Assembly: GCA_027451665.1 (NCBI GenBank)
Contig: DAIDIW010000002.1
Coordinates: 146,766-210,765 of the forward strand
Origin: Candidatus Kaiserbacteria bacterium
Lineage (GTDB): Bacteria > Patescibacteriota > Minisyncoccia > Phycocordibacterales > Phycocordibacteraceae
Length of the DNA: 64,000 bases
Reading direction: 5' to 3'
Within the stretch, counting starts at the first letter, position 1; each line of letters begins with the position of its first letter. Positions 20,581 to 50,635 of this stretch are shown in pieces. Position numbers and translations under genes: made by a program. The notes beneath the pieces are model-generated. The model had not been told where the DNA came from. It did not search any database and saw only the letters and a list, made by a program, of their open reading frames with translations.

Positions 20581-21828
20581 TTACCGGTTCGGATTCGTTA
20601 CGGTGACCTTGATCGACGAAGGGTCTTGCGGGAAGGATGAGCGCCAGAAGGGGCGCAGAATGAGGACCGCTCGCTTCACCTCCGGATAGTTCGTAAGTGC
20701 CACCTCTGCGGCTGACCGGCTTTTCCCGGCCACTGCCGCTGCGATTCTGCCGGGGTCGACGGTATAGGTAAGATTCGCGGTGCCCGCCAGGGTGAATGCG
20801 AACTGGGAGGATGCGGGCGTCGGATAGCCCGAAATCGGGGTAAGGGTGAGTCCGCTCGTCGAGGAAAGCGTGAGCGGTTCGCCCTGGTAGCCGAGGCCGG
20901 TTATCGAGGTTGCAATGCTTTTCGCGAGCGCGGCTGACGGGAAAATAATAGCCGTCTCGGTCGCCTGCTCCTTCACATCAACCTGGCCAGTGGTGGCTGA
21001 TGGCGTCGGCGTTAGCTCATCGAACGTTGTAGTAGCAGCGCCCGAGAGAAGCACATACCCTGCAGGTATCTGACTTTGAATGCTGGACACGAGATCAGGC
21101 GCGAGCGCAGTCTTAAGCGAAGTTACGGCGGATTGCTCAGTCGCAGGCGCAACCGTTGGCACGGTCCCGCTTGCACCGCCAATCATGGGAGTCGCCGAAC
21201 GGGCGGTAATCTTCGTCGCGAGCGCGGTACCGTCGAGTCCCGGGACCGTGAACGAGGTGGGCCCAATGTTGTAGGAATCACCGGACTGGTCCGCTGTTAC
21301 CTCGACCTCGATGCTTCCGGGCGTAGATATCGAGCCGCCTGGCACGGTCACCGCCTTGCCGATGCGGAAGATGAGGCCGGACGGAGTCGCAAAACGCGTG
21401 TCTGTTACGAGCCGTTGGGCACGTAGCTCCGTGTTATAGATCGTTATTTGGCCCGTTGCCTTGCTATTTACCTGCTTAGTGCCCGAACCTTGCACGCTCT
21501 GCGTCGCGATCTTCTGAACGGTGAGTATTTCGAACGGAAGATCGCCCGTGCTCTTATCAGCCGTGAAGGAGTTCTGGACCGCCGTTGTTACGGTGCTTGG
21601 CGTTACCTGTACTTCCGCGCTTGAGAAATAGAAGAGGGCGCCGATGGACACGAATATGACGACAAAGATGCCGATAAGGGTCGCGTAGGGGAATCGTGGG
21701 GGCCGCGGGGTAAGGCGGAGCGGCTCGCGAGAGATACCGGGCGACTGCGGGGCCTGCAAGTCGGTCACTGGAGCAGGCTCCATCTCCTTGCGGCGAGACG
21801 GCGGGATTATGTCATCGAGTTTGCGCAT
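20581..21828 (-). CDS. hypothetical bitopic membrane protein (N-in, 1 TM, large Thr/Ser/Ala-rich extracytoplasmic domain)
   Basis: 415 aa; cytoplasmic Pro/Arg-rich N-terminus, TM LIGIFVVIFVSIGALFYF, then beta-rich low-complexity domain. Topology like PilN/FtsQ-type partners of actin-like ATPases. Confidence 0.45.
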   Translation of the reverse strand: MRKLDDIIPPSRRKEMEPAPVTDLQAPQSPGISREPLRLTPRPPRFPYATLIGIFVVIFVSIGALFYFSSAEVQVTPSTVTTAVQNSFTADKSTGDLPFEILTVQKIATQSVQGSGTKQVNSKATGQITIYNTELRAQRLVTDTRFATPSGLIFRIGKAVTVPGGSISTPGSIEVEVTADQSGDSYNIGPTSFTVPGLDGTALATKITARSATPMIGGASGTVPTVAPATEQSAVTSLKTALAPDLVSSIQSQIPAGYVLLSGAATTTFDELTPTPSATTGQVDVKEQATETAIIFPSAALAKSIATSITGLGYQGEPLTLSSTSGLTLTPISGYPTPASSQFAFTLAGTANLTYTVDPGRIAAAVAGKSRSAAEVALTNYPEVKRAVLILRPFWRSSFPQDPSSIKVTVTNPNR

Positions 21829-21887
21829 AGTTTCCAGTATACCTGAGGAATGACGCGTCGCGGCTCCTTTTGCACATACCTCCCCTG

Positions 21888-22925
21888 CTACTCATCATGA
21901 CCGTGTTCCTTCCAGTAAAGCGTCATGAGTTGCATCACGATATCCGGCTCCACTTCGGCGCCCTGCTTCATCGGCGGCAACTGCTTCATCCGGATAGGAA
22001 CGAGTTTCGGAGGGTCATCAGTAAGCCACATTTTTCCAAGATCTGCCCCTTCGAGCGCGCGTTGTACCGGCTCAAGATGATCGTCATCCGCGAGAATGAA
22101 GATGATGCGAGGCAAAGGATATCGCGTGGCGAATTCGCCGAATGCGTTTACTACCTCGCCAATCCATTCGGGCGAGCCGGCTTCCCCGTCTGGCAGCTCT
22201 TTTACTGCGACCAAAAGTCCCTTCCGAATAAGCGAAATGGCGATTTCAGGGCCGCTCGCGTCAAGCAAGAACGCGTTACGCTCGTGCGGGAATACGCTGC
22301 GTACGGCTTGATAGCGCAGTGAGCTCCCCGCGATTGTCGGTATACGCTCCGTGTGGAACAACGAGCGTAATACCCCGGCTATTGCGCGCGCTACAGCCTC
22401 ATCGATGAAGGATACGAGCATGATGACCTGCGCACGCATGACCTGTTTTCCGAACGGCTCATGCGTCTCATAACCGTTGAGCGTGGTACCGACGATGCTT
22501 TCATCGACAAGCAGTTTGCCCTTGGGCGTCACCGCTGCTTTCCGTATAGCAGCGTCAAGCATCCTGCGGGTGAATGTGAAAGGCTTTTTATCCTCAAATT
22601 TTTCGTAACGCAGCATGGTCGACTGCCAGGGGGCGCTTATGGAGACAAGAAGCGCTTCTGCCCTGCCGGATCCGGTAAGACGCGCAAGCGCTGGGGCGCC
22701 ATCGCGTACGAGCGTGTCGCAGAGCTCCTTAAGCGTGCGCGTCATGGCACTCACGTCGTCCTCGTGCTCCTTTGGCTCGATGCTCAGACGACGCGCATAG
22801 GCGATCGTCGCCTGCGCATCCGGAGTAAAGTGCGCATATGCCCCCGCAACGGAGCCGGCGCCTATGTCTAGGAGCAGTATTGACTCCGCTTCAGGCTTGT
22901 TGAAGAGGCGCGCGAAAAATCCCAT
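21888..22925 (-). CDS. actin/Hsp70-fold ATPase, FtsA/PilM-like
   Basis: N-terminal phosphate-1 motif ILLLDIGAGSVAGAYA; later DASGPEIAISLI (phosphate-2-like). Start at ATG 22925 (MGFFARLF). Confidence 0.5.
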   Translation of the reverse strand: MGFFARLFNKPEAESILLLDIGAGSVAGAYAHFTPDAQATIAYARRLSIEPKEHEDDVSAMTRTLKELCDTLVRDGAPALARLTGSGRAEALLVSISAPWQSTMLRYEKFEDKKPFTFTRRMLDAAIRKAAVTPKGKLLVDESIVGTTLNGYETHEPFGKQVMRAQVIMLVSFIDEAVARAIAGVLRSLFHTERIPTIAGSSLRYQAVRSVFPHERNAFLLDASGPEIAISLIRKGLLVAVKELPDGEAGSPEWIGEVVNAFGEFATRYPLPRIIFILADDDHLEPVQRALEGADLGKMWLTDDPPKLVPIRMKQLPPMKQGAEVEPDIVMQLMTLYWKEHGHDE

Positions 22926-22985
22926 GTGGTGACAGTATACGGCATGCGTTTCGCAGAACCGTACACAAGGAGGATAAAATAACAC

Positions 22986-26988: not shown

Positions 26989-27660
26989 CTAAAGCCAGTC
27001 GATCGGCGCGGAGCCATTCGCCTCGAGGTATTCGTTCGCCTTCTTGAAGTGACCGTTACCAAAGAATCCGCTATTAGCTGAGAATGGCGAAGGATGCGCA
27101 CTCTCGAGCACGAGATGTTTAGTGGGGTCGATATGCGCGCCTTTCTGCTTCGCATAGTTCCCCCAGAGCATAAAGACAAGATGCTCGCGTTTGTCGGAAA
27201 GGGCTTTCACAGCTGCATCGGTGAACGTCTCCCACCCTTTCCCCTGATGCGAACCGGCCAGATGAGCGCGAACGGTAAGAGTCGCGTTCAGGAGTAACAC
27301 ACCTTGGGTCGCCCAGCGCTCGAGGCTGCCGTCACGATGGATCATCGACGCGCCGTATTCATCCTCAATCTCTTTGAAGATGTTCTGGAGCGAGGGGGGT
27401 AAGCGCTGTCCTTGGTCCACAGCGAAGCAGAGCCCGTTCGCCTCGTTGGGACCGTGGTACGGATCTTGCCCGAGAATGACGACTTTCACCTTGTCGAAGG
27501 GACAGAGGTCGAACGCGCGGAAGATAGCGCGCGGCGGCGGGTAGACCGCCTCAGTCTCATATTCGCGCTTCACGAACGCAGCCAGTTCCTTGAAGTACGG
27601 CTGCTCGAATTCAGCCGAAAGGCGCATCTTCCAGGAAGGATCTATACGGACCTCACGCAT
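26989..27660 (-). CDS. ung: uracil-DNA glycosylase (family 1)
   Basis: VVILGQDPYHGPNEANGLCFAV (GQDPYH water-activating loop) and HPSPFSANSGF (HPSPLS leucine loop). Confidence 0.9.
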   Translation of the reverse strand: MREVRIDPSWKMRLSAEFEQPYFKELAAFVKREYETEAVYPPPRAIFRAFDLCPFDKVKVVILGQDPYHGPNEANGLCFAVDQGQRLPPSLQNIFKEIEDEYGASMIHRDGSLERWATQGVLLLNATLTVRAHLAGSHQGKGWETFTDAAVKALSDKREHLVFMLWGNYAKQKGAHIDPTKHLVLESAHPSPFSANSGFFGNGHFKKANEYLEANGSAPIDWL

Positions 27661-27665
27661 GGCAG

Positions 27666-28463
27666 CTACTGTTTCCGCTTGCGATGCTCGCGCAATAACG
27701 TCTTACCGGCAGCTTCCCGGTAGCTGCAGAAATCGCACGGGCCGCCGCCAAATGAGGTGCCCGATGCTGGAATGTCGTCACTCACGAGCATCGACTTGAG
27801 GCTAAACAAAAGCGGTTCAATCCACTCCTGCGCGCCGATATACGGGATCAGCTTCACGTCAAATTCAAGCTTACCGTCGAAGGCCGGCGCATCTGAATTG
27901 CCGTTCACATACACGAAATAACCGGTCGGAGAAACGGAAAAGCCGTTCATACGGAACAGCCACTGGTAGATCTCCATCTGTCGCTTATACGAATCGTACA
28001 GATCATCTTCGGTAGACGGTCCGATCTTCTTACTCGTCGCCTTGTAGTCAACGATGATAAGCTCTCCAGCCGGTGTTTCCCATACATCGTCGACGCCGCC
28101 TCGAATGATGAGATCCGTCGGTTCGTGATGATATGCGATACCTCGCTTCAGCGCGTCGCGCCACTCCTCGAGCCGTTCGTCCGCGCAAGGTACCGCTTCG
28201 ATGCCATAGGCCTGCATAAGAGGATGCGGCTTGCCCTCGGCGCGATGAACGTCAAATTCGCGTTTGAGAAGCTCGTCGACCGCGTTATTCAGCGTGAACG
28301 AAGGTCCAGAAGGTCGCTTAACGCCGAACTTAAGGTCGAGGTAGGCGCAGCGAGGGCATTCAGCGAACAGGTCGAGCTTCGAGCGGCTCACGACGAACGG
28401 GCCGCCTTTAGGATCGTACGGCCCCCAGAGCTTCTTGGCTTTTGCAAGAGCGGACGTCGTCAT
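27666..28463 (-). CDS. Cas4-like / RecB-family PD-(D/E)xK nuclease with putative 4-Cys Fe-S cluster
   Basis: N-terminal SKLDLFAECPRCAYL, IIVDYKAT (D-x-K core), QMEIYQWLF (QhxxY motif), C-terminal CDFC. One CxxC at each end gives the four Cys arrangement of Cas4/AddB Fe-S domains. No CRISPR repeats nearby. Confidence 0.6.
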   Translation of the reverse strand: MTTSALAKAKKLWGPYDPKGGPFVVSRSKLDLFAECPRCAYLDLKFGVKRPSGPSFTLNNAVDELLKREFDVHRAEGKPHPLMQAYGIEAVPCADERLEEWRDALKRGIAYHHEPTDLIIRGGVDDVWETPAGELIIVDYKATSKKIGPSTEDDLYDSYKRQMEIYQWLFRMNGFSVSPTGYFVYVNGNSDAPAFDGKLEFDVKLIPYIGAQEWIEPLLFSLKSMLVSDDIPASGTSFGGGPCDFCSYREAAGKTLLREHRKRKQ

Positions 28464-28984
28464 CGTGTCGTGAAGTAAGCGATGACCGGTTGGCCCGTAT
28501 CGAAATCAACGTAAACGCTATCTGTCGAGAGATCGAAGGTATTACTGCCTCCGTCCCGATAGAGCTCAATAGCGTATGTGCCGCCTGGAACCGTTGCGCG
28601 CAAAAGCGGGACCGTAAAATCTGTTCGAGGACCGCCAGCGTGCGCGGCGCCAAGTACGTTTCCGAGCGCGTCGTCATCGACTTCGCGGACGGCAACCCAG
28701 ACGCCAGGAGGCGGGATGGTAACTGAAGCAACAGTCACAGTATTACCTGCCGGTTGATCGGTAACCGATACGACACCGCTCGGTGTGCTTACAAGCGGGC
28801 TCGAAGACGCGGCCGGAGCCTGTGCTGCCGCATTAGGAGGAGTCGCCGGCGTCGCGTAAAACCAAGCGGTAAGAAGCAGCGCGCCGAGGATGAGGCCCCC
28901 GACAAAGGATGTGAGTGAGAACTCTCGCATCGTCATACGCACATACCTTAACACATCAGCGCTCGAGAGCCGGAACTCCCTCAT
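28460..28984 (-). CDS. hypothetical membrane-anchored extracytoplasmic protein
   Basis: TM FVGGLILGALLLTAWFYA followed by a beta-rich domain; 4-nt overlap with the downstream nuclease gene. Confidence 0.4.
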   Translation of the reverse strand: MREFRLSSADVLRYVRMTMREFSLTSFVGGLILGALLLTAWFYATPATPPNAAAQAPAASSSPLVSTPSGVVSVTDQPAGNTVTVASVTIPPPGVWVAVREVDDDALGNVLGAAHAGGPRTDFTVPLLRATVPGGTYAIELYRDGGSNTFDLSTDSVYVDFDTGQPVIAYFTTR

Positions 28985-29825
28985 GAGGCATAGCGAGCAG
29001 CCCTTCGGCCTCGGCGAGCAGCTCGCCTACCCCCTCGGGTGCCAAGTGGAGAGGATCGAGCAACGTGCGGTCCGCGACGATCTGGTCTACTGCCACGACA
29101 CGAGCATCAATGAGTAGCCGTTTTTCGGCTCTCGAGAGGCTGGTGAGCGCGGTGATTGGGTAGACGCGGGCGCGGTACATGCGCGTAAGGAGGCAGTCCT
29201 GCCGCGGATAGCTCCAGCCTAGGAGCTCAACGCCTGCACACTCGGCGTATGCGATCGCCTCGCTCGTGAATTTAGTGTTCGTCACAAGAAGGCCGCGATC
29301 GATGGGGCAGGTACGTTCGGCGGGATCACAGGCGAAGATGTCATCGAACCGGCTCTTCACATAGAGCGCAACCTTGAGATCTGTTTTGTAGCCCGGATCG
29401 TTGTGATACTTGAGCTCGGCCGCCAGATATTCCCCGCGTCCCGGATGCGACGCATAGAAGTCGGTCTCATGCGTCACGCACTTGCCCCTTATGAGTTTTC
29501 GTGTCTCGACCGTCCAACCTTCAGCTGCGAAAAGATGCGAGACGAAGTCCTCGAACGGATGTCCGGAGGGCCCGAATTCCAGCATCGCGCGACGAAGCGC
29601 ATAGCGCGCCGCTACGGGGCGGCCTTCCTTGCGCAAGAGCGAAAAAGCGCGTGCATAGACTTCTTTCGAAGTGGTGCCCGCAACGATCGTCGAGCGAATC
29701 TGCTCCGAAATATCCTCCGCGGCGCGTGTCGCTGCGCCGGCACGGCGCAGCGACGACACGAGACGCTCCGGATCGAATGCCTCGGTCGTCCCGTCTGCCT
29801 TGATGATGGGAGGAAGCGCGCTCAT
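28956..29825 (-). CDS. ATP-cone domain fused to restriction-endonuclease-like (Mrr-cat type) domain
   Basis: N-terminal IIKADGTTEAFDPERL ... matches the ATP-cone consensus (VIKRDGxxExFdxxKI) of NrdR/NrdA. Central FEDFVSHLFAAEGW...D...GID-like region resembles the Mrr N-terminal catalytic fold. ATGA overlap with the upstream gene. Confidence 0.5.
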   Translation of the reverse strand: MSALPPIIKADGTTEAFDPERLVSSLRRAGAATRAAEDISEQIRSTIVAGTTSKEVYARAFSLLRKEGRPVAARYALRRAMLEFGPSGHPFEDFVSHLFAAEGWTVETRKLIRGKCVTHETDFYASHPGRGEYLAAELKYHNDPGYKTDLKVALYVKSRFDDIFACDPAERTCPIDRGLLVTNTKFTSEAIAYAECAGVELLGWSYPRQDCLLTRMYRARVYPITALTSLSRAEKRLLIDARVVAVDQIVADRTLLDPLHLAPEGVGELLAEAEGLLAMPHEGVPALER

Positions 29826-30229
29826 TGGACGGTCGTGCTTGCGGCTATCCCGTTCACGGTAACGACGACGGGCGCCCCCTTAGGGGCTACGACGGTCGTC
29901 GAGAACGGTATCTGCGTAGGAAGTTCGAGACACACGCCCGAATCGGGAGGCATATCAAGCGAGAGCGCTATCGAGGTGCTGGACGCTTTGGTCGTCGTTG
30001 CGTACGCGGTCACCGTCGCGCAAGCATCAGGCGCGAGTACGGCCCCTGCAAGCGTATGCGTGCCTCGGCGGTAGGTATCCGTGTAGGTCACTGAAGGCGT
30101 CGTCGTCGCAGGCGCCGGTGCACGGGCCACTTGCCCCAAATCCCTCGTATGCGGTACTGAGAGGGCGAACCCGCCAAGAATAAGTATCCCAATGATTCCT
30201 GCCGCGGTCCAGAAGCGCTTTGTTTGCAT
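29822..30229 (-). CDS. hypothetical small membrane-anchored protein
   Basis: Likely start at MQTKRFWTAAGIIGILILGG (internal ATG about 30228); the track ORF upstream part overlaps the mnmA C-terminus. Thr-rich extracytoplasmic tail. Confidence 0.35.
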   Translation of the reverse strand: MQTKRFWTAAGIIGILILGGFALSVPHTRDLGQVARAPAPATTTPSVTYTDTYRRGTHTLAGAVLAPDACATVTAYATTTKASSTSIALSLDMPPDSGVCLELPTQIPFSTTVVAPKGAPVVVTVNGIAASTTVQ

Positions 30230-30272
30230 ATCGCGATAGTAGCACAGGCGTCCGAGCCTCCGACAGACGCAC

Positions 30273-31268
30273 TCACGAAAGAATCGCGCCGCCCACGAGC
30301 GCGTTGTCCGCGTCATAAAAAACGATGGACTGGCCGGGTGCGTATGGCTCCGACAGGAGTTCATGAGGAATGAAGTGCGAAGTCTCGACGATTCCTCGTA
30401 TGCGCGGCCCTCGGTAGCGCAGTTGCGCCGCTACGGCGCGGTCCGGATCCTGTATCCAATTTTCATAATCGTAGGAGAGCGGCGCAATCGGTTGTGGATT
30501 TCGTTCGTGCGCGACGACGAGACGATTCTGCGTCATATCCTTCGCGCGGACAAACCACGGACCTGGCTGCTTGGTATCGAAAAGCGCGATGCGTTCGCCG
30601 AGCGTGTAGAGAACAGCACCTTCGTGGCGGCCGATCCGTATCCCTTCGGTATCGTATGCGTCGCCCGGGTCCGGATGAAAGGTCTGCCGAAGGAATTCGT
30701 CCACTGAAATATCGCCGAGGAAGCAAACCCCTTGCGAGTCGGGTTTCTCGGCTATGGGTAAGCCATATGCGCGTGCAAGTGCGCGCACCTCTTCCTTTGT
30801 CTTTCCCTTGAGCGGGAACATGAGCGCCTTCCACGTCGTCTTTGGTATGGCCCAGAGGAAATAACGCTGATCCTTTTCGCCATCAAGATAATGGCCTGTC
30901 GCGAGGTAATCGGCGCCATGTTCCTGCGCGAATGCGTAAAGCACGCCGAATTTTACCTCGCGATTGCACATCACGTCAGGATTCGGCGTACGTCCGGCTC
31001 CGTATTCCTTGATAAGGTAGTCGATCACGGCGCGCTTATAGGCTTCGCGCGCGTCGAGTGTCATGAACGGAAGCTGGAGGCGCGCTGCCACGCGCATCGC
31101 GTCGCGGCGATCTTCCGCCCAAGTACAAGGCATGCCGGGGGGGTACCACCCCTTTACGAATACCGCATACACGTCAGCGCCGGCTTCCTTAATGAGCGCT
31201 GCGCTCACAGCCGAATCCACGCCGCCTGAGAGCCCTACGAACACGCGCTTTCCGCGGAGGTCCTGCAT
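30273..31268 (-). CDS. mnmA: tRNA-specific 2-thiouridylase MnmA
   Basis: VFVGLSGGVDSAVSAALIKEAGADVYAVFVKGWY (PP-loop SGGxDS), catalytic Cys context, 331 aa. Confidence 0.85.
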   Translation of the reverse strand: MQDLRGKRVFVGLSGGVDSAVSAALIKEAGADVYAVFVKGWYPPGMPCTWAEDRRDAMRVAARLQLPFMTLDAREAYKRAVIDYLIKEYGAGRTPNPDVMCNREVKFGVLYAFAQEHGADYLATGHYLDGEKDQRYFLWAIPKTTWKALMFPLKGKTKEEVRALARAYGLPIAEKPDSQGVCFLGDISVDEFLRQTFHPDPGDAYDTEGIRIGRHEGAVLYTLGERIALFDTKQPGPWFVRAKDMTQNRLVVAHERNPQPIAPLSYDYENWIQDPDRAVAAQLRYRGPRIRGIVETSHFIPHELLSEPYAPGQSIVFYDADNALVGGAILS

Positions 31269-32319: not shown

Positions 32320-33690
32320 CTAGGTGGGCAGATTTGCCGGTGCCTCGCTTGTTGAAGACTCGATCCGCGTGAGGCTTGGGGTTGCGACTGCAGCAGAAGG
32401 TATATGGAAGATCGTCGCGAGCTCCTCGGTGCTCATCACCATGGGGTCCGGCATCTTGAACGGGTCATGGAAATACTGACGACGGCGATACGCTTCGACA
32501 AGCTCGCGGCGAAAGACGTCCTTACGCTTCTCGTTGCCTATTTCCCAGGGATAATCGCTGAACATGATGCCGAAGTGGGCTGCCTTGAATCCGTTCCGGT
32601 CCTCCGCGTTGAACGGTTTCCAAAGCGAAATCATTCCCGTGATATTGACCGGATCGAAGGCATCAGGTTCTGCAACATAAACGCCTCGGATACCGACATC
32701 GAACGCAAGTTTTGAGACGTTGCGTTCTATTGCCGCGATCTTCTCGCTCTGCCCCTTCGTCGGGTTTGGGAATCCTTCAGTCTCGCGCATCTCTCCGCTA
32801 AATACGTCGCGATACGCAAAAGTACGGACCGTCTCCTTCCGGATATCATCGACGAGTTCGAGAGCCTTATCGCGCCAGGTATACGGTTTGCCGTCAGGCT
32901 TCATTTTCCCGTACTTCTCCCCTGCATGGATGCGGAAGATAATCTGGAGCCAGAAGTTCTCGCCCGGCCCCATCGAGCCGAGAAATTCGGTCAAGTGGGC
33001 AAACGGGTCAACCTGTTCGTTCTCCTTTTGTGTCTTATCAAGCCCGTAATCAACATAGGTCTTGATGGGTATGGGGTCGTTCTTATCCGTATGTTTGAAG
33101 TCGCAACCCCAGACGCCGTATTCCTCGGGTTTCGCGCTTATAAACCGCGTGTAATCCTCCACCTCGACGAGCTGCACACCGGGGTATTGGGCATAGAATG
33201 CATTCTCGACGAGCTTCCTAAAGTTCTCGCGCGTCCAGATATAGAAGTGCACTTGTCCACCGAACGAGACGAGCTCGATCGACCAATAGGGACGGACCTG
33301 TCCCTGAATATACTTTTGATACCAGTTACTTTCCCCTTTCGTGTAGTGAATCGCGGAGAATACCGCCTCCATCGCAAGCGGCGTTTTCGCCAGATTGCGT
33401 GGCGGACGAATTTCAAGCAGTACTACCTTTTGCTTCGCGATGAACTCGGACCGGGCAAGCAGAAGCCAGGTATGCCACGAGGCGTCAAGAATGACGGCAG
33501 GGAGCCACAGTGGCGAGAGAAAAAGCGCAAGCTCGATGCCGTGGACGGTGGCGTACGGGAAGAAAACGTAAAAGGTGAAGATTCCAACGAGGCCGCCAAT
33601 GAAAGGCGGCCAGGAGAATGGTCGCACGCCCGCTTTATCGCGCGATTTGTCGACGAGTTCCTCGAGCTCTTCAAAAAACGGTAGGTGCAT
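32320..33690 (-). CDS. conserved hypothetical protein, 456 aa, N-terminal two TM helices plus large cytoplasmic domain
   Basis: No recognisable catalytic motif. Features: FIGGLVGIFTFYVFFPY / LALFLSPLWLPAVIL TM pair, then VVLLEIRPPRN...PLAMEAVFSAIHY and a Trp/Tyr-rich globular region. Confidence 0.5.
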   Translation of the reverse strand: MHLPFFEELEELVDKSRDKAGVRPFSWPPFIGGLVGIFTFYVFFPYATVHGIELALFLSPLWLPAVILDASWHTWLLLARSEFIAKQKVVLLEIRPPRNLAKTPLAMEAVFSAIHYTKGESNWYQKYIQGQVRPYWSIELVSFGGQVHFYIWTRENFRKLVENAFYAQYPGVQLVEVEDYTRFISAKPEEYGVWGCDFKHTDKNDPIPIKTYVDYGLDKTQKENEQVDPFAHLTEFLGSMGPGENFWLQIIFRIHAGEKYGKMKPDGKPYTWRDKALELVDDIRKETVRTFAYRDVFSGEMRETEGFPNPTKGQSEKIAAIERNVSKLAFDVGIRGVYVAEPDAFDPVNITGMISLWKPFNAEDRNGFKAAHFGIMFSDYPWEIGNEKRKDVFRRELVEAYRRRQYFHDPFKMPDPMVMSTEELATIFHIPSAAVATPSLTRIESSTSEAPANLPT

Positions 33691-33762
33691 GGTTGCGTTG
33701 CACCTAGTGTAGCAGAAACGCGCACCGCTTGAGACAAAGCAGCCCGCGTTCGTGTGAATTGA

Positions 33763-34833
33763 TTACGCTACGGTGTACGTGCCGTCCTTCGTGCGCTTGA
33801 AATGCTTCGGGTCATTCAGATTAACGAGGATGGTATTGTCTTTCACGATACGCGCTTTCTTCACGCGCTTCACAATGTCTTCCTTCGTGAGAGGGCCGGA
33901 TTCCTCAAGGACCTCGCGGATGACATCGCGTACGACGCCTGGCTTATAGCCCCATTCGGTGAGCGCATAGAGACCACGACCGACAAGCACGAAACGCGGA
34001 TCCTTGATGAGCTCGTTGTGCGTGGTGGCGACATGCGCTTTCTTAGAGAAGGTCGTCGTGATTGTCTTTGCTACATCCGCAAAGTGCATGGGCTCGCCTT
34101 TTCGCTTAATCGTAAGATACGCGTAATCCCGTATCCCCTTCGTACGTATGGCCGGCGCTGATACGCGGCCCCATTCGGACAGCGGATTCCTGCCGAGCTT
34201 TTTCGAAAGCGAGAGCCACCGCTTCAATACTTCCTCGTCGCGGTAGGCGTCATTCACGTTCTTAAGCTCATCGAGGAAGCGGTCGAGAAGTTCCGATTCC
34301 GGAACGATCTCGTCATCTTTGAGCGACCCGTAGAGTGCGGTCAGGGCTTCATGGATTTTCTTCGCGGTTGCAGCATCGATATGCCAGCGCGCGAGGAACT
34401 CATCAGTCTCGCGTTCGCGATAAAACGCTGAACCGAGCATGAGGAGAAAACGGAACCGGTTACGGCCCTTCTCATCGGTCGCGAGCGATTCCAACAGCTC
34501 TTCCTCTGACACCATGGCGCCGAGTTGGTCGATATGATCGGCAAGCTCCTCAAACGCGCCGGACGCATCCTTGAATGCAACACTTGCGCGGATCGATTCG
34601 AGGCCTGCGGCCTCGATCTGACGCACGCGTTCACGTGTGATGCCTGACCGATCGCCGATCGCCTCGAGCGTCTCGCGCTTCGTATTCGCTCCTAGCCCGA
34701 AGCGGCGCACGAGCACGTCGCGCGGACGTTCTGCGGCAGCCGCAAGAAGTTTCTTCACGACGGCTACGCTGTCAAACGTGAAGGTGGTCCTGCTTCGACC
34801 CGGCGTCAGCTTCGTCTTGTTTTTCATAGGCAT
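33763..34833 (-). CDS. DNA-binding protein with sigma-70 region-4-like HTH and C-terminal HARE-HTH-like domain
   Basis: DVLVRRFGLG...ETLEAIGDRSGITRERVRQIEAAGLESIR is a sigma-70 r4 / LuxR-like HTH. C-terminal VLVGRGLYALTEWGY matches the G-R-G-x-Y-x-L-x-E-W hallmark of HARE-HTH. Start at ATG 34833 (MPMKNKTK). Confidence 0.55.
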   Translation of the reverse strand: MPMKNKTKLTPGRSRTTFTFDSVAVVKKLLAAAAERPRDVLVRRFGLGANTKRETLEAIGDRSGITRERVRQIEAAGLESIRASVAFKDASGAFEELADHIDQLGAMVSEEELLESLATDEKGRNRFRFLLMLGSAFYRERETDEFLARWHIDAATAKKIHEALTALYGSLKDDEIVPESELLDRFLDELKNVNDAYRDEEVLKRWLSLSKKLGRNPLSEWGRVSAPAIRTKGIRDYAYLTIKRKGEPMHFADVAKTITTTFSKKAHVATTHNELIKDPRFVLVGRGLYALTEWGYKPGVVRDVIREVLEESGPLTKEDIVKRVKKARIVKDNTILVNLNDPKHFKRTKDGTYTVA

Positions 34834-34879
34834 GTGGTCTAGTTTATAGCAAATGTTTCGAGAATCGTCAATTTTGTGG

Positions 34880-37744
34880 TCAAACGACGATATTAAGAAT
34901 ACGTCCCGGTACGTACACGGTTCTGTGCGTGCCGGCCGCAAGCGCTTCCGCAACTGCCGGGATAGCGCGTGCGGCCGCGCACGCTTCCTCTTCCGTAGCG
35001 TCCGGGGCAAGCGTGACCTCTCCGCGGCGTTTTCCATTCACCTGGACGGCGAGGGTAATGACACGGTCCACAAGAAGCTCCGGCGCGTAGCGAGGCCATG
35101 CGTTCGCGTGCACGGATCCCTCCCCTCCAAGCGAAGCCCAGAGCCGTTCAGTGATGTGCGGAGCGAACGGCGCAAGAAGCTGTACATAGGCGCGCATGCT
35201 CTGCTTCGAGAGCGTTTGTTCTCGTTCAAGCTCATTGAGCAGTGCCATGAGCGTTGCGACGGCGGTATTCAGCTTGAATCGATCTCCGTCCTCCGCGATC
35301 TTCACGCTCGCGCGCGCAAGCCCGCGTTCTTCCCCCTCTGTAGGCGCCGCATCGCTCGCGCGCGCCGCCTGGCGGATAACGCGTTCGATGAATCGGCGCA
35401 TGGAAGGAACGCCGTCGAGGTGCCAAGGATAGCTGCCCGGCTCGTTATACGGGCCGATGAACGCCAGATAGATGCGTACCGCATCAGCTCCATACTCTTC
35501 CACCACCTCATCGGGATTGATGACGTTTCCCTTCGACTTGCTCATTTTCTGACCGTCAGGACCCATGATGAGTCCCCGATTGAATCGCTCCTCGAAGGGC
35601 TCCTCGACCGGTACGAGCGCAAGGTCGTGCAATGCTTTGATGAAGAAGCGGGCGTACAGCAGATGCATCGTGGTGTGCTCGCTGCCGCCTGAGTAACGAT
35701 CCACGGGGAGCCATCTCTTCATGCGCCTCCCGTCTGAGAAATCGTTTGCATCCTTCGGATCAAGATATCGCAAGAAGTACCATGAAGAATCAACGAACGT
35801 ATCCAAGGTGTCGTATTCCGGCGTCCATCCCGCTCCAAAGATTCGTGTGACCCGTTCGCGCAATTCCTCCGAGGATGCAAGCGGTGATTTACCAGTCGGT
35901 TTGAAATCGACATCGGTCGGTAGCAGCCACGGCAAATGCTCCGCTGGAATCGCGTGCGGCTTCCCCTCGGGGTCATAGACAATAGGGATCGGGCAGCCCC
36001 AGTAGCGTTGTCGAGAGACGAGCCAGTCACGCAGACGGTAATTCGTGGTGCGTTCGCCGCCCGCGTACTCGATAATGTCAGAGAACGCCTCGCGATTGTC
36101 TCTGCCGTCGAACGTGCCGGAATTAATGAGGTAGCCGTCGCCCGTAAGCGCGATTTCTTCGTGCAAGAGCTGCCACATCTGCTTTTGATGCGCCGGCGTA
36201 AGCCGTCCAAGCATCTCATGCTCCTCAATCCAGGAGAGCGTATGCTTCTTCGCTTCATCATCCGGAATCTTTCCCTTGCCTTCGAGCGAATCGATCTCGG
36301 CGAGGAGCGCATACGTATGCGCGCAGCGATTCTCTCCCTTGTGTGAGGCGCAGTAACGCGCGGCTGTTATGAATGGCACCCGCTTGGTGATGTGCGCGCC
36401 CACAAGTGCGGCTTCCTCGCTGATCTCCCTCACGGCTGCTTCTTCCGGTGTCTCCCCAGCGTCGATACCGCCCATAATGGCCGTCGCGATCCCTTCGAGC
36501 GGGCCATGCCAATCGAGAATGGCGAACTTGCCGGTCGAGCGATCCCTAAGATGCACCACTACCGTATCGCGCTTCACCTCCTCAAACTCAGGGCGCGGCG
36601 GGTTCGATACGTCATCGGCGCACGGGACAACTACCTGCCGAATCGCTAGCCCATGCTTCTTCGCGAACTCGAAGTCGCGCTCGTCATGCGCTGGGACCGC
36701 CATGACCGCTCCGGTGCCGTAGGAGCCGAGCACGTAGTCGGCAACATAGATGGGGATCGGTTCGTTCGTCGCCGGATTGATCGCTCTCACACCCTTGAGC
36801 TCCACCCCTGTCTTTTCCTTATTTTCACTTCGTTCACGCTCTGTTTTCCGCTTAGTGGCCTCTAGATAGCCGCGCACTTCATTGGCATTCTCAATTCGCC
36901 GCGCATCCTCGGTGGCCAGCTGGGTTACGAGAGAATGTTCCGGCGCAAGCACAAGGTAGGTAGCGCCGAAGATGGTGTCCGGCCTCGTCGTGAATACATC
37001 GACCACGTGCACTGCCTCCGAGGCGGAGGCCGCGTCACTAATGTCAAATCGCATGCGAGCGCCCTCGCTCTTCCCGATCCACGCTCGCTGCGCATCCTTG
37101 ATATCTTCGCGCCACGGCAGGCGTTCGAGCCCACTCAGGAGCCGGTCCGCATATTTCGTGATCTTGAGGAACCATTGGGTGAGCGTCCTTTCTTCCACTT
37201 CCGTGCCACAGCGCTCGCATCGGCCATCTATCACCTGTTCGTTCGCAAGCACCGTCTGGTCCTTTGGACACCATTTCACCGGCGCAGCTCGCCTCTCCGC
37301 AAGCCCGTGCTCGAAGAGTTTCGTAAACAACCACTGGGTCCATTGGTAATACGAAGGATCGCACGCGATTACCTCCTTCGACCAATCAAACGACGCGCCC
37401 ATGCTCTCGAGCTGCACGCGCATACGTTCGATATTCTGGTAGGTCCATTCTTTAGGATCAATGCCATTCTTGATAGCGGCGTTCTCGGCAGGGAGCCCGA
37501 ATGCATCGAACCCGATAGGAAAGAGGACGTTTTTACCGCGCGCACGCAGCATCCGCGCATAGATATCGGTTAGCGCGAACGCGTACCAATGGCCAATGTG
37601 GAGGTCTCCTGACGGATACGGGAATTCAACGAGGAGATAGTACGGGTCCGCATCGCTCGCGAGATCTGTCTCGTACAGATTAAGCTCCTTCCACATTGCC
37701 TGCGCTTCAGCCTCGACTTCGCGATGGTTGTACGTCCCTCCCAT
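34880..37744 (-). CDS. leuS: leucyl-tRNA synthetase
   Basis: HIGH: PYPSGDLHIGHWYAFALTDIYARM; KMSKS: QKMSKSKGN; CP1 editing domain present. 954 aa, longer than typical bacterial LeuRS because of insertions. Confidence 0.9.
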   Translation of the reverse strand: MGGTYNHREVEAEAQAMWKELNLYETDLASDADPYYLLVEFPYPSGDLHIGHWYAFALTDIYARMLRARGKNVLFPIGFDAFGLPAENAAIKNGIDPKEWTYQNIERMRVQLESMGASFDWSKEVIACDPSYYQWTQWLFTKLFEHGLAERRAAPVKWCPKDQTVLANEQVIDGRCERCGTEVEERTLTQWFLKITKYADRLLSGLERLPWREDIKDAQRAWIGKSEGARMRFDISDAASASEAVHVVDVFTTRPDTIFGATYLVLAPEHSLVTQLATEDARRIENANEVRGYLEATKRKTERERSENKEKTGVELKGVRAINPATNEPIPIYVADYVLGSYGTGAVMAVPAHDERDFEFAKKHGLAIRQVVVPCADDVSNPPRPEFEEVKRDTVVVHLRDRSTGKFAILDWHGPLEGIATAIMGGIDAGETPEEAAVREISEEAALVGAHITKRVPFITAARYCASHKGENRCAHTYALLAEIDSLEGKGKIPDDEAKKHTLSWIEEHEMLGRLTPAHQKQMWQLLHEEIALTGDGYLINSGTFDGRDNREAFSDIIEYAGGERTTNYRLRDWLVSRQRYWGCPIPIVYDPEGKPHAIPAEHLPWLLPTDVDFKPTGKSPLASSEELRERVTRIFGAGWTPEYDTLDTFVDSSWYFLRYLDPKDANDFSDGRRMKRWLPVDRYSGGSEHTTMHLLYARFFIKALHDLALVPVEEPFEERFNRGLIMGPDGQKMSKSKGNVINPDEVVEEYGADAVRIYLAFIGPYNEPGSYPWHLDGVPSMRRFIERVIRQAARASDAAPTEGEERGLARASVKIAEDGDRFKLNTAVATLMALLNELEREQTLSKQSMRAYVQLLAPFAPHITERLWASLGGEGSVHANAWPRYAPELLVDRVITLAVQVNGKRRGEVTLAPDATEEEACAAARAIPAVAEALAAGTHRTVYVPGRILNIVV

Positions 37745-48650: not shown

Positions 48651-48717
48651 GCTGCGACTTCGTGCAGCACAGAACCGCCGCCCTTCGGGCGGCGGTTCTG
48701 CTATCTCCTCTGCAGAG

Positions 48718-49419
48718 TCAGACTCCTGTGGACTCGAGGGGACTTGAACCCCTGACCCCCTCCATGCCATGGAGGTGCTCTACCAGCTGAGCTACGAGCC
48801 CGTGTGCACCATTTAACCGCATTTCTACGGTACGCGCTACAGGACCGGTCAGTATGAGGCCGGAAACGTATATCGCGGCAACAGCATATGCGGCACCGCC
48901 AATGACATCTGCGAGGTAGTGCTGCTTTACGAACAACGTCGAAAGGGCCACGAGCGTGCCGACCGTCCAGATAAGGGGAGCATACGCGGGAAATGCGAGC
49001 GCGCAGAAGTAGGCCACCGTGAGCGCCATGAGGACGTGGGTGCTTGGAAATGTGTGCGCCCGATCATCGTGGCGATAAAGCCAGTGGACGAGCCTGCTAC
49101 TCACGTCGTTGCGCCGTATCTCGGGCTGGCGTATGCCGCCTTTGATGAAATAACGCGTGAGGGAACCTGCAAGCAGCCCAAAGATGAGCGCAACATAGAG
49201 CGCCTCGGCGTAAGGAGTCTCAAACATACGGATAAGCGCCACTCCCACGAACGGGAAAAGTCCGAAGTACGGGAAGATGAATTCAGGCACGAAGGGTATC
49301 TGCCTGTCGAGCGCGCTCATAAAGTAATACTTCGCCCGCCCGCGATTCAGCGGGAAATACAGATACATGCTCGCGATGACGAGCGCGAGAAGCGCAAGAA
49401 GCAAGACGTCGCGTGTCAT
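48718..49419 (-). CDS. PAP2-family phosphatase (phosphatidic-acid-phosphatase type 2 / undecaprenyl-PP phosphatase-like); 3' end uncertain
   Basis: PSTHVLMALTVAYF and KQHYLADVIGGAAYAVAAIY are the PAP2 PSGH-like and SRxxxxxHxxxD motifs. Start at ATG 49419. The ORF reads through tRNA-Ala(GGC), so the true stop is unclear. Confidence 0.55.
   Translation of the reverse strand: MTRDVLLLALLALVIASMYLYFPLNRGRAKYYFMSALDRQIPFVPEFIFPYFGLFPFVGVALIRMFETPYAEALYVALIFGLLAGSLTRYFIKGGIRQPEIRRNDVSSRLVHWLYRHDDRAHTFPSTHVLMALTVAYFCALAFPAYAPLIWTVGTLVALSTLFVKQHYLADVIGGAAYAVAAIYVSGLILTGPVARTVEMRLNGAHGLVAQLVEHLHGMEGVRGSSPLESTGV
48729..48801 (-). tRNA. tRNA-Ala (anticodon GGC)
   Basis: Revcomp GGGCTCGTAGCTCAGCTGGTAGAGCACCTCCATGGCATGGAGGGGGTCAGGGGTTCAAGTCCCCTCGAGTCCA; G3:U70 Ala identity pair; anticodon loop AUGGCAU; CCA not encoded. 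Confidence 0.9.
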
Positions 49420-49829
49420 GGCACGTTGCGATAATATGCGTACGACGCCCACCCAACGGTCACGCATGCGACGAATGCCCCGAATAGAAGGCCAGCGACC
49501 AGGACCGCACGTTCATACCGCATGAACCGCAACAGCTCATACCCCGTAGCGAACCCGAGCTGGGCGAATAGGATGTCCGCAAAGCTATTCGTGACAGCTT
49601 CTGTCGAAGCTAGTCCGGTGAACCGCTCAATAAGTTCCCAGCCTCCGGCAACAAGCACGCTTATGCCGAGACCCGGCCAAAAGAAGACCGAGTGTTCGAG
49701 TAGAAGGAATGCGATGAGTGTACCGGAAATCACGTGCGTGATGCTCCAGAGATCAGCATACTTCCCCTCCCATATCGAACGGTCGCTCATGAAGCGAACG
49801 AGCAGAGAATCAGTCATAGGATATGTCAC
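49416..49829 (-). CDS. hypothetical membrane protein
   Basis: 137 aa, 4 TM; ATGA overlap with the PAP2 gene start. Confidence 0.4.
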   Translation of the reverse strand: MTYPMTDSLLVRFMSDRSIWEGKYADLWSITHVISGTLIAFLLLEHSVFFWPGLGISVLVAGGWELIERFTGLASTEAVTNSFADILFAQLGFATGYELLRFMRYERAVLVAGLLFGAFVACVTVGWASYAYYRNVP

Positions 49830-50631: not shown

Positions 50632-50635
50632 AGTA

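What the first reader, a model, noticed from the sequence alone, without database searches (positions are those of the whole stretch)
27666..30364. Tightly coupled four-gene cluster: Cas4-like Fe-S nuclease, ATP-cone-REase fusion, two membrane-anchored proteins, upstream of ung
Four consecutive minus-strand genes overlap by 4-29 nt (ATGA junctions), so they are almost certainly one operon ending in ung:
- a membrane-anchored protein (about 29822-30229);
- an ATP-cone domain fused to an Mrr-like PD-(D/E)xK domain (28956-29825);
- a membrane-anchored extracytoplasmic protein (28460-28984);
- a Cas4/RecB-like nuclease with CPRC...CDFC Fe-S ligands and a QhxxY motif (27666-28463).
There is no CRISPR array or other cas gene in the 64 kb. 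An ATP-cone (a nucleotide-sensing regulatory domain of RNR/NrdR) fused to a nuclease suggests nucleotide-pool-gated DNA cleavage. Two nucleases, membrane partners and a uracil-DNA glycosylase together resemble a DNA-uptake/processing or anti-phage defence module that does not match a named system as far as I can tell.
Basis: partly seen in the sequence, partly recalled or inferred. Interest (0 to 1): 0.65.

Follow-up and report, generated by a model that had tools for sequence, protein, structure and literature searches.

The report
Core nuclease genes, not a defence island
The four tightly packed genes are real, but they belong to an inherited housekeeping block of a tiny-genome Patescibacteria (Kaiserbacteria-like) bacterium and are not an anti-phage module; the part worth following is an uncharacterised, very conserved nuclease with an ATP-sensing domain that is probably involved in nucleic-acid turnover and nucleotide salvage.

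Summary
Four co-directional minus-strand genes sit between mnmA and ung, with ATGA overlaps at g4/g3 and g2/g1. The domain calls are correct: ATP-cone plus Mrr-like PD-(D/E)xK, a RecB/Cas4-like nuclease with CxxC...CxxC, and two membrane-anchored proteins.

The defence or DNA-uptake reading is not supported. The window contains only housekeeping genes. The order sigma-like, DUF8128, mltG, mnmA, g4, g3, (g2), g1, ung, alaS recurs in 80 species genomes and in relatives where g3 is only 37-44% identical. g3 is the best-conserved protein of the block (median 72% identity, above AlaRS at 69%). PADLOC gives only sub-threshold Cas4 hits, phages give none, and 2 of 72,556 plasmids carry g3.

mnmA is coupled to g4 by the same ATGA overlap, so overlap does not indicate shared function. 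g2 is dispensable, and opposite-strand housekeeping genes can separate g3 from g1.

g1 goes with a mini-Ogt gene (lost here) and Ung as DNA-repair genes. g3 belongs to the AF1548 family (PDB 1Y88, function unknown) with an added ATP-cone. In Bacteroidota- and Chlamydiota-type relatives it sits in operons with a beta-CASP nuclease, a nucleoside-phosphorylase-family protein and PRPP synthetase, within universal-stress-protein islands. This supports an adenine-nucleotide-gated nuclease for nucleic-acid turnover or salvage, which is an inference and untested.

The parts
29822..30229 (-). g4: 135-aa signal-anchored extracytoplasmic protein. It has an N-terminal TM helix, the conserved motif LSVPHTRD and two conserved Cys, and matches no known family.
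   Evidence: ORF and ATGA junction with g3. Found in 78 of 80 syntenic loci, but at only 46% median identity. The ATGA overlap with g3 occurs in 77 of 78 loci. No Pfam, NCBIfam, PADLOC or PHROG hit. Not homologous to g2 (hhalign probability 0.5%). Absent or non-homologous in deeper relatives.
28956..29825 (-). g3: 289-aa cytoplasmic three-domain protein, made of an ATP-cone, an Mrr/AF1548-like PD-(D/E)xK nuclease and an AF1548-like C-terminal (SAM/HhH-like) domain.
   Evidence: Pfam ATP-cone and Mrr_cat both above their cut-offs. A profile hit to PDB 1Y88 (AF1548) has E=2e-25 over residues 94-276. The AF2 model has pLDDT 79.5. The top Foldseek hit is 1y88 (E 3.6e-13, target TM 0.77), followed by MspJI/AspBHI/Can2 nuclease domains and NrdR ATP-cones. 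Family-wide invariant residues are K9, G12, F17, H119, E120, D122, E137 and K139.
29592..29807 (-). ATP-cone domain of g3 (aa 7-78).
   Evidence: Pfam PF03477, profile positions 3-82 of 88. Structural matches to E. coli and S. coelicolor NrdR ATP-cones. K9, G12 and F17 are invariant across 26 divergent family members.
29211..29546 (-). PD-(D/E)xK nuclease core of g3 (aa about 94-205), with catalytic D122, E137 and K139.
   Evidence: Aligns to D38/E51/K53 of AF1548, which PMC1821046 predicted to be catalytic. These residues are invariant in alignments A1 and A3.
28995..29192 (-). AF1548-like C-terminal helical domain of g3 (aa about 212-277), a putative nucleic-acid-binding module.
   Evidence: Covered by the alignment to 1Y88. 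PF22357 AF1548-like_C is recorded for homologues. The model is helical here, with pLDDT 86-95.
28460..28936 (-). g2: signal-anchored extracytoplasmic DUF7282 protein (158 aa from the likely start). It occupies a variable slot between g3 and g1.
   Evidence: Pfam DUF7282, 37.8 bits. Present in 59 of 80 loci; elsewhere it is deleted or replaced by unrelated genes. A 35%-identical counterpart exists in L084.
27666..28463 (-). g1: 265-aa stand-alone RecB-family (Cas4/Exo5/AdnA-nuclease-like) nuclease with CxxC...CxxC.
   Evidence: PDDEXK_1, 44.8 bits. Cas4 models score below their cut-offs. The AF2 model has pLDDT 86.5. Foldseek hits are the DinG nuclease domain, RecE, AdnA, Exo5, Cas4 SSO0001, AddB and lambda exonuclease, at E 1e-5 to 1e-3. 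The four Cys and the D/D-x-K/Q..Y motifs are invariant in 70 orthologues.
26989..27660 (-). ung: family-1 uracil-DNA glycosylase, last gene of the co-directional run.
   Evidence: NCBIfam uracil-DNA glycosylase equivalogs, 313 bits. Syntenic in 64 of 80 loci.
30273..31268 (-). mnmA: tRNA 2-thiouridine synthase, immediately upstream. In most relatives it overlaps g4 by ATGA.
   Evidence: NCBIfam MnmA equivalog, 292 bits. A 4-nt mnmA/g4 overlap occurs in 61 of 76 loci. In the window the spacer is 43 nt.

Best explanation
The four genes are ordinary members of a vertically inherited housekeeping gene block of a Paceibacteria (Kaiserbacteria-like) genome. They are not one dedicated system. I read three separate things in the block.

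(1) g3 is an autonomous enzyme of the AF1548 nuclease family with an N-terminal ATP-cone.
- The ATP-cone binds adenine nucleotides (ATP/dATP). As in ribonucleotide reductase and NrdR, binding would change oligomeric state or conformation and so switch the PD-(D/E)xK active site (D122/E137/K139) on or off. The C-terminal helical domain would hold the nucleic acid.
- Its likely biological role is controlled breakdown of nucleic acid to feed nucleotide salvage. A bacterium that cannot make nucleotides needs this constantly.

(2) g1 is a stand-alone RecB/Cas4/Exo5-like nuclease with a probable metal or Fe-S 'staple' formed by 2+2 cysteines. It belongs with the neighbouring mini-Ogt gene (lost in this genome) and Ung to DNA repair or end processing.

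(3) g4 and g2 are small signal-anchored surface proteins that occupy variable slots. They have no demonstrated link to the nucleases.

Shown: gene models, domains, intact catalytic residues, conservation, synteny, and the contexts of relatives.
Inferred: nucleotide binding, gating, substrate and physiological role.
For: Housekeeping setting:
- Everything else in the 64 kb is core: aminoacyl-tRNA synthetases, DnaK/J/GrpE, ribosomal proteins, RpoA, F1Fo ATPase, UvrABC, Ddl and Tgt.

Synteny:
- In 80 species genomes the order sigma-like, DUF8128, mltG, mnmA, g4, g3, (g2), g1, ung ... alaS recurs. g4 is present in 78, g1 in 77, ung in 64 and g2 in 59.
- Three deeper lineages with g3 at 37-44% identity keep mnmA, g3, (small membrane proteins), PDDEXK_1, mini-Ogt and UDG.

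Selection:
- g3 has the highest median identity of the block: 72%, against AlaRS 69%, Ung 70% and MnmA 55%.

Autonomy of g3:
- There are 372 cluster representatives at E<1e-30. Nearly all of the 150 best-scoring ones listed are 270-310 aa long and align over nearly the whole of g3.
- Members occur without g1, g2 or g4.

Active site and ATP-cone:
- Invariant across members only 33-45% identical to g3.
- Fold confirmed.

Link to nucleotide metabolism:
- In Pontibacter and Criblamydia the homologue heads an operon with a beta-CASP/RMMBL nuclease, a thymidine-phosphorylase-family protein and ribose-phosphate pyrophosphokinase.
- In 80 metagenomic relatives the beta-CASP gene is adjacent in 31 of 57 loci with enough downstream sequence, the TP-family gene is present in 17 of 44, and Prs in 17 of 42.
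- Unbiased neighbour clustering adds tandem universal stress proteins (28 loci), a P-type ATPase and Pfk.
- The MBL-Prs-TP trio is induced by microoxia in Bradyrhizobium (PMC6515984).
- CPR bacteria are described as unable to synthesise nucleotides (abstract of bioRxiv 10.64898/2026.07.13.738296).

g1 with repair genes:
- An 87-aa DNA_binding_1 protein with the PCHRV motif lies between g1 and ung in most relatives.
Against: - No biochemical data exist for any member of either nuclease family.
- The nucleotide-metabolism operon is seen in non-CPR relatives that are only about 38-40% identical. It is not seen next to g3 in the CPR block, so transferring the function is guilt by association at a distance.
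- The canonical ATP-cone 'KR' dipeptide is K-A here, and K-x across the family, so nucleotide binding is not guaranteed.
- g3 and g1 stay close to each other in all CPR-type contexts sampled. One non-syntenic relative lies one gene away from an AddA-like helicase-nuclease. A DNA-repair partnership of g3 with g1 therefore cannot be excluded.
- The substrate (DNA or RNA) is unknown.
Confidence: 0.55

Rival explanations
1. g3 and g1 work together, with mini-Ogt and Ung, as a DNA-repair or recombination set. g3 would be a dATP/ATP-gated structure- or damage-specific endonuclease and g1 the exonuclease that resects the ends. This would replace missing RecBCD/AddAB-type functions in a reduced genome.
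For: - g3 and g1 remain within 0-3 genes of each other in every CPR-type context sampled, down to 37% g3 identity.
- The neighbours are repair genes: mini-Ogt and Ung.
- One non-syntenic g3 relative lies one gene away from an AddA-like UvrD+PDDEXK_1 protein.
- g1's fold matches the AdnA, AddB, RecE and Exo5 nucleases.
- The AF1548-like C-terminal domain is helical and SAM/HhH-like.
Against: - The whole 15-kb block, which includes unrelated genes such as LeuRS, mltG and mnmA, is equally syntenic. Proximity is therefore not specific evidence.
- Large inserts separate g3 from g1 in 10 loci, with an opposite-strand Mur-ligase-like gene in the 9 whose ORFs were read.
- Outside CPR, g3 relatives associate with a beta-CASP RNase-type nuclease, a phosphorylase and Prs, not with repair genes.
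Confidence: 0.22
2. The quartet plus ung is an anti-phage defence or DNA-uptake and processing module in which nucleotide-pool depletion triggers DNA cleavage.
For: - Two intact nucleases sit next to membrane proteins.
- Mrr-type nuclease domains and Cas4-like proteins are common in defence systems. The Foldseek neighbours of g3 include MspJI, AspBHI, Can2/Card1 and Avs nuclease domains.
- An ATP-cone could in principle sense infection-driven changes in the nucleotide pool.
Against: - Core, syntenic and vertically inherited in at least 80 species (216 hits).
- g3 is more conserved than AlaRS.
- No PADLOC hit except sub-threshold Cas4.
- No phage homologues, and only 2 plasmids for g3 and 1 for g1 out of 72,556.
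- No other defence genes in the 64 kb.
- g2 and g4 are dispensable in relatives.
- mnmA shares the same translational coupling.
Confidence: 0.06
3. g3 is an NrdR-like nucleotide-sensing DNA-binding regulator. It would use the nuclease fold and the C-terminal domain only for DNA binding, and would control salvage or dNTP genes instead of cutting nucleic acid.
For: - The ATP-cone resembles the NrdR ATP-cones structurally.
- Extreme conservation and a single fixed architecture would suit a core regulator.
- Restriction-enzyme folds are sometimes re-used as binding modules (general knowledge).
Against: - The catalytic triad D122/E137/K139, plus H119/E120, is invariant across 26 members only 33-45% identical to g3. 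That is not expected for a non-catalytic scaffold.
- There is no Zn-ribbon or HTH.
- No repeated operator-like sequences were looked for or found.
Confidence: 0.1

Closest known systems
AF1548 of Archaeoglobus fulgidus (PDB 1Y88; Pfam Mrr_cat + AF1548-like_C)
   Same: The nuclease core and C-terminal helical domain of g3 align over residues 94-276 (E=2e-25). It is the top structural match. The predicted catalytic D/E/K correspond.
   Different: AF1548 has no ATP-cone, is archaeal, and has no known function (a structural-genomics entry). It gives a fold but no mechanism.
ATP-cone regulators: NrdR and the class I/III ribonucleotide reductase activity site
   Same: N-terminal ATP-cone above the Pfam cut-off, with structural matches to NrdR. 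The domain sits at the N-terminus of an effector, as in those proteins.
   Different: The output domain is a PD-(D/E)xK nuclease, not a Zn-ribbon DNA binder or a reductase. The canonical KR dipeptide is K-A/K-x. Nucleotide binding is untested.
Mrr-type (Type IV) restriction nucleases: Mrr, MspJI, AspBHI
   Same: The catalytic fold and the D...ExK plus TNTKFT-type motifs. Mrr_cat scores above its cut-off.
   Different: There is no modified-DNA reader domain. g3 is a core, syntenic, single-copy gene with no phage hits and almost no plasmid hits.
Cas4 / AddB / AdnA / Exo5 / RecE family of RecB-like nucleases (for g1)
   Same: The fold and the motifs D, D-x-K and Q-h-x-x-Y. Cysteines near the N- and C-termini sit in the positions of the Fe-S 'staple'.
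   Different: The Cys pattern is CxxC...CxxC (2+2), not C...CxxCx5C (from my own knowledge of the family). Cas4 models score far below their cut-offs. There is no cas1/cas2 or array, and no fused helicase. g1 is a core gene next to ogt/ung.
ATP-cone protein / beta-CASP nuclease / thymidine-phosphorylase-family / PRPP-synthetase operon in universal-stress-protein islands (Bacteroidota, Chlamydiota). The MBL-Prs-TP part is microoxia-induced in Bradyrhizobium.
   Same: The first gene of that operon is a full-length homologue of g3 (37-40% identity by tblastn), with the same three domains.
   Different: The partner genes are not next to g3 in the window or in any CPR locus examined. The operon itself is uncharacterised.

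Membership tests
Cas4 (CRISPR adaptation nuclease) | Score at or above the curated cut-off of the Cas4 equivalog model (TIGR00372, 65 bits) | tested here: not met
   g1 scores 24.3 bits over residues 123-190 only. PADLOC Cas4 models give 18-24 bits.
Cas4 (CRISPR adaptation nuclease) | Genomic association with cas1/cas2 and a CRISPR array | tested here: not met
   No cas genes in the 64 kb. No repeat arrays. No Rfam CRISPR repeats. The neighbours in 77 syntenic loci are g3/g2 and ogt/ung.
Cas4 / RecB-like nuclease superfamily | RecB nuclease motifs (D, D/E-x-K, Q-h-x-x-Y) and the RecB-like fold | tested here: met
   D126, D139-Y-K141 and Q162...Y166 are invariant. Foldseek hits to RecE, AdnA, Exo5, Cas4, AddB and lambda exonuclease.
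Cas4/AddB Fe-S nucleases | Four-cysteine cluster in the pattern C...C-x2-C-x5-C that binds an Fe-S cluster | tested here: inconclusive
   Four invariant Cys are present, but as C36-x2-C39 ... C243-x2-C246. Metal content cannot be tested with these tools.
ATP-cone domain proteins | Match to Pfam PF03477 above the gathering score, and the ATP-cone fold | tested here: met
   29.3 bits against a cut-off of 25.8. Structural alignment to NrdR ATP-cones over 80-84 columns, rmsd 3.6-3.8.
ATP-cone domain proteins | Binding of ATP/dATP and an allosteric effect on the fused domain | not testable with these tools
   K9, G12 and F17 are invariant and E15, K/R21 and Y75 are conserved, but the second residue of the canonical KR pair is not conserved.
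AF1548-like nucleases (Mrr_cat + AF1548-like_C) | Homology to AF1548 across both the nuclease and the C-terminal domain, with D/E/K retained | tested here: met
   E=2e-25 over residues 94-276. Foldseek E 3.6e-13, target TM 0.77. D122/E137/K139 are invariant.
Type IV (Mrr-like) restriction enzymes | N-terminal modified-DNA recognition domain, plus the patchy, mobile distribution typical of restriction genes | tested here: not met
   The N-terminus is an ATP-cone. g3 is core and syntenic in at least 80 species. There are 0 phage and 2 plasmid hits.
NrdR | N-terminal Zn-ribbon followed by an ATP-cone | tested here: not met
   There is no Zn-ribbon. The ATP-cone is N-terminal and is followed by a nuclease domain.
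Known anti-phage defence systems (PADLOC-DB 2.0) | Significant match of the component proteins to models of a defined system | tested here: not met
   g2, g3 and g4 give no hit. g1 gives only weak Cas4 hits.

The most novel reading that the evidence does not exclude
g3 would represent an undescribed class of ATP-cone-controlled enzyme: a nuclease whose activity is set by the cell's adenine-nucleotide (ATP/dATP) level. In nucleotide-auxotrophic Patescibacteria it would be a core gatekeeper of nucleic-acid breakdown for salvage. In Bacteroidota and Chlamydiota it would be the entry enzyme of a stress-island pathway (with a beta-CASP nuclease, a nucleoside/AMP phosphorylase and PRPP synthetase) that converts nucleic acid into nucleotides and pentose under energy limitation.
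Probability: 0.3. Interest if true: 0.65.

Novelty: new variant of a known kind. Interest (0 to 1): 0.4.

Why it matters
As a candidate defence system the finding can be set aside, which avoids a false lead. What remains is a protein family with the following properties:
- It has a fixed ATP-cone-nuclease architecture.
- It is more conserved than an aminoacyl-tRNA synthetase within a large Patescibacteria clade.
- It has a solved homologue of unknown function.
- In other phyla it is repeatedly linked to nucleotide-catabolism and stress genes.
- It has never been characterised.

If the ATP-cone does gate the nuclease, ATP-cone allostery would extend beyond ribonucleotide reductase and NrdR. It would also give a concrete, testable enzyme for how nucleotide-auxotrophic ultra-small bacteria control nucleic-acid scavenging.

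Tried and rejected
- PADLOC and PHROG scans of the four proteins. Only sub-threshold Cas4 or exonuclease hits for g1, and nothing for g2-g4.
- Paralogy of the two membrane proteins, g2 and g4. Rejected by BLASTP and by hhalign on alignments of 60-79 orthologues (probability 0.5%).
- Sigma-70 promoter and intrinsic-terminator scans across 26.8-33.8 kb. Counts were not clearly above the shuffled sequence, so they say nothing about operon boundaries.
- Sequence search of g1 against PDB. No hit, even with a profile. Only the fold comparison was informative.
- Literature searches for ATP-cone plus nuclease or restriction, AF1548, and DUF7282. No functional study was found. AF1548 appears only in the GOS paper, as a predicted restriction-like nuclease.
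- Taxonomic names for distant g3 representatives. The clusters carry no names, so the taxonomy of the non-CPR relatives rests on two plasmid records and on gene content.
- Homology of g4 to the small gene in the same position in L081. Not detectable.
- Spatial clustering of the four g1 cysteines in the AF2 model.

Full report
**1. What is in the sequence.**

Between 26,989 and 31,268 the minus strand carries mnmA, g4, g3, g2, g1 and ung. Junctions read directly from the sequence:
- g4/g3 overlap by ATGA (29825-29822).
- g2/g1 overlap by ATGA (28463-28460).
- g1 and ung are 5 nt apart.
- mnmA and g4 are 43 nt apart if g4 starts at 30229.

Orthologues of g2 begin at the equivalent of Met17 (28936), which leaves a 19-nt spacer, exactly as in the closest relative L001. 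g4 orthologues begin at the equivalent of 30229.

Domain assignments are confirmed:
- g3 has an ATP-cone (29.3 bits, cut-off 25.8) and Mrr_cat (22.9 bits, cut-off 21).
- g1 is PDDEXK_1 (44.8 bits).
- g2 is DUF7282.
- g4 matches nothing.
- Cas4 models hit g1 only far below their cut-offs (24.3 against 65 bits).

There are no cas genes, repeat arrays or CRISPR RNAs in the window. Tight spacing is common in this genome: 19 of 46 same-strand pairs are 10 nt or less apart.

**2. Where the window comes from and what surrounds the genes.**

Homologues of g3 and g1 are all from Patescibacteria, under the names Kaiserbacteria, Paceibacterota and Parcubacteria. A protein 100% identical to g1 lies on a 287-kb NCBI contig.

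Every other gene in the 64 kb with a family match is core:
- ScpA/B and five aminoacyl-tRNA synthetases
- DnaK/DnaJ/GrpE
- ribosomal proteins and RpoA
- AlaRS, MltG and YchF
- F1Fo ATPase, Ddl, UvrABC and Tgt

This is not a defence island.

**3. Conservation and synteny.**

A scan of one genome per species found 216 genomes encoding a g3 relative. The best 80 were fetched with 10-kb flanks.

In these loci the order sigma-like/HARE-HTH, DUF8128-like, mltG, mnmA, g4, g3, (g2), g1, ung ... (M13 peptidase), alaS is maintained. g4 is present in 78 of 80, g1 in 77, ung in 64 and g2 in 59.

Median identity to the window proteins:

| Protein | Median identity |
|---|---|
| g3 | 72% |
| g1 | 71% |
| Ung | 70% |
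| sigma-like | 70% |
| AlaRS | 69% |
| DUF8128-like | 57% |
| MnmA | 55% |
| g2 | 54% |
| MltG | 53% |
| g4 | 46% |

The two nucleases are therefore under purifying selection as strong as, or stronger than, an aminoacyl-tRNA synthetase. That is the opposite of what is usual for defence genes.

Junction statistics:
- g4/g3 ATGA overlap in 77 of 78 loci.
- mnmA/g4 ATGA overlap in 61 of 76.
- g3/g2 ATGA overlap in 46 of 59.

Since mnmA, a tRNA-thiolation enzyme, is coupled in the same way, overlap reflects genome compaction and not shared function.

The g2 slot is variable. g2 is absent in 21 loci:
- In 8 loci g3 abuts g1.
- In 10 loci a large insert (about 1.27 or 3.15 kb) lies between g3 and g1. 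In the 9 whose ORFs were read it carries an opposite-strand Mur-ligase-like gene, with an asparagine synthase alongside it in 4.

In those loci g3 and g1 cannot be one transcript.

In three deeper lineages (g3 at 37-44% identity) the block LeuRS, sigma-like, DUF8128, YceG, mnmA, g3..., PDDEXK_1, mini-Ogt, UDG, M13 persists. g4 is absent or replaced by a non-homologous small protein. g2 is present, replaced or absent, and an MgtC gene appears.

**4. g1.**

The AF2 model (pLDDT 86.5) matches RecB-like nucleases: the DinG-associated nuclease domain, RecE, AdnA, human Exo5, Cas4 SSO0001, AddB and lambda exonuclease, at E 1e-5 to 1e-3. No PDB sequence relative exists.

D125/D126, D139-x-K141, Q162...Y166 and four cysteines (C36-x2-C39, C243-x2-C246) are invariant in 70 orthologues. 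This includes two divergent sub-classes (about 56% and about 50% identity) that occupy the same position. The 2+2 cysteine spacing differs from the 1+3 pattern of Cas4/AddB (the pattern is from my own knowledge). Whether the site holds Fe-S or Zn cannot be decided here.

In most relatives a gap of about 260 nt between g1 and ung holds an 87-aa DNA_binding_1 protein with the alkyltransferase PCHRV motif. This gene is missing in the window. g1 therefore sits among repair genes.

g1 has no phage homologues, and one plasmid hit out of 72,556.

**5. g3.**

A profile of 20 orthologues hits PDB 1Y88 (AF1548, unknown function) at E=2e-25 over residues 94-276. The AF2 model (pLDDT 79.5) has 1y88 as its top structural match. 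Mrr-type catalytic domains (MspJI, AspBHI, Can2/Card1) follow, and NrdR ATP-cones match the N-terminus.

D122/E137/K139 correspond to the D38/E51/K53 that were predicted to be catalytic in AF1548 (PMC1821046).

An exhaustive search of 1.84 billion cluster representatives finds 1,028 relatives, 372 of them at E<1e-30. Nearly all of the 150 best-scoring ones listed are 270-310 aa long and align over nearly the whole of g3. The three-domain architecture therefore looks fixed.

Across 26 members, the 24 outside the Kaiserbacteria clade being only 33-42% identical to g3, these residues are invariant:
- ATP-cone: K9, G12, F17
- nuclease core: G114, C116, H119, E120, D122, E137, K139, Y155, R159, D162, N183, C196

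An intact active site argues for catalysis and against a purely regulatory scaffold.

**6. What relatives elsewhere are associated with.**

tblastn of g3 finds no phage and only two plasmids, from Pontibacter actiniarum (Bacteroidota) and Criblamydia sequanensis (Chlamydiota). In both, the homologue heads the same operon:
- the ATP-cone protein
- an MBL-fold hydrolase, which Pfam shows to be a beta-CASP/RMMBL nuclease
- a thymidine-phosphorylase-family protein
- ribose-phosphate pyrophosphokinase

In 80 metagenomic loci of Pontibacter-like relatives:
- the beta-CASP gene is adjacent in 31 of 57 loci with enough downstream sequence
- the phosphorylase is present in 17 of 44
- Prs is present in 17 of 42

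Unbiased clustering of neighbours also recovers tandem universal stress proteins (28 loci), a P-type ATPase (10), a 2-hydroxyacid dehydrogenase (11) and phosphofructokinase (9). The MBL-Prs-TP trio is induced under microoxia in Bradyrhizobium (PMC6515984).

Other family members are stand-alone, or sit in unrelated contexts.

Outside CPR, the family is thus repeatedly tied to nucleic-acid or nucleotide catabolism within stress and energy-limitation islands.

**7. Interpretation.**

The four genes are not one system.

g3 is best explained as an autonomous nuclease gated by adenine nucleotides through its ATP-cone. In nucleotide-auxotrophic CPR bacteria it is most plausibly used for controlled nucleic-acid turnover and salvage. 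This is an inference from domain logic and from operon associations in distant relatives, and no step has been tested biochemically.

g1 is a RecB/Cas4/Exo5-like repair or end-processing nuclease.

g4 and g2 are small signal-anchored surface proteins in variable slots.

The main rival is a g3-g1 repair partnership. It cannot be excluded, because the two genes stay close together in all CPR contexts. The whole block is equally syntenic, however.

Defence is very unlikely. An NrdR-like regulator without catalysis is disfavoured by the invariant active site.

**8. Novelty.**

The domains and the family are catalogued (Pfam; NCBI names such as 'ATP cone domain-containing protein'; a structural-genomics structure). 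I found no functional study.

An ATP-cone fused to, and presumably controlling, a nuclease would be a new variant of ATP-cone allostery. As a defence-system lead, the finding is ordinary and should be scored low. As a pointer to an uncharacterised core enzyme, it is moderately interesting.

Noticed in passing
window 27661-27665; compare L017:12142-12402, L172:8200-8454 and L084:7089-7370: Most relatives carry an 84-93-aa stand-alone O6-alkylguanine-DNA alkyltransferase C-terminal domain (DNA_binding_1, PCHRV motif) between g1 and ung. The window genome has lost it, leaving a 5-nt spacer. Some relatives also have a PCMT gene there.
   Followed up: partly
window 34880-37744 (-): The leucyl-tRNA synthetase (954 aa) has a NUDIX-domain match (aa 415-521, E=7.9e-10) just after the match to the editing domain (aa 220-378). 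This is an unusual insertion for LeuRS.
   Followed up: no
L087:1972-6597, L088:5995-10602, L089-L168: There is a recurrent operon of an ATP-cone/AF1548-like nuclease, a beta-CASP/RMMBL nuclease, a thymidine-phosphorylase-family protein and ribose-phosphate pyrophosphokinase. It is often flanked by tandem universal stress proteins, a P-type ATPase, phosphoketolase, Pfk and acetate kinase. It looks like an uncharacterised stress-island pathway for nucleic-acid or nucleotide catabolism.
   Followed up: partly
window 27666-28463, compared with L002, L005, L011, L035, L039, L065 and others: g1 orthologues at the same syntenic position fall into three divergence classes (about 72%, about 56% with H113 changed to D, and about 50% identity to the window). 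g3 in the same genomes stays at 70-75%. All classes keep the catalytic and Cys residues. The cause (accelerated evolution or replacement) is not resolved.
   Followed up: partly
window 32320-35037 (-): A 456-aa protein, and a 424-aa protein with sigma-70 region 4 plus a HARE-HTH domain, are syntenic with the block in nearly all relatives. The 456-aa protein has no Pfam hit here, but its positional counterparts in more distant relatives (L081, L082, L172) are recorded as DUF8128. Both are conserved CPR genes of unknown role.
   Followed up: no
L081:9534-10067, L084:5789-6256, L172:6860-7327, L170:5005-5934: In deeper CPR-type relatives an MgtC-family gene lies between g3 and the PDDEXK_1 gene. 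In another lineage a CorA Mg2+ channel follows g3. In Bacteroidota-type loci a cation P-type ATPase is frequent. This may be a recurring link to Mg2+/cation handling, or it may be coincidence.
   Followed up: no
window 20581-22985 (-): Two proteins (415 and 365 aa) with no Pfam match lie directly downstream of alaS on the minus strand. The second abuts alaS with a 0-nt spacer.
   Followed up: no
window 48700-52600 (-): Six tRNA genes (Ala x3, Pro x2, Val) are scattered among small genes (PAP2, TspO, a trypsin-like protease) on the minus strand.
   Followed up: no
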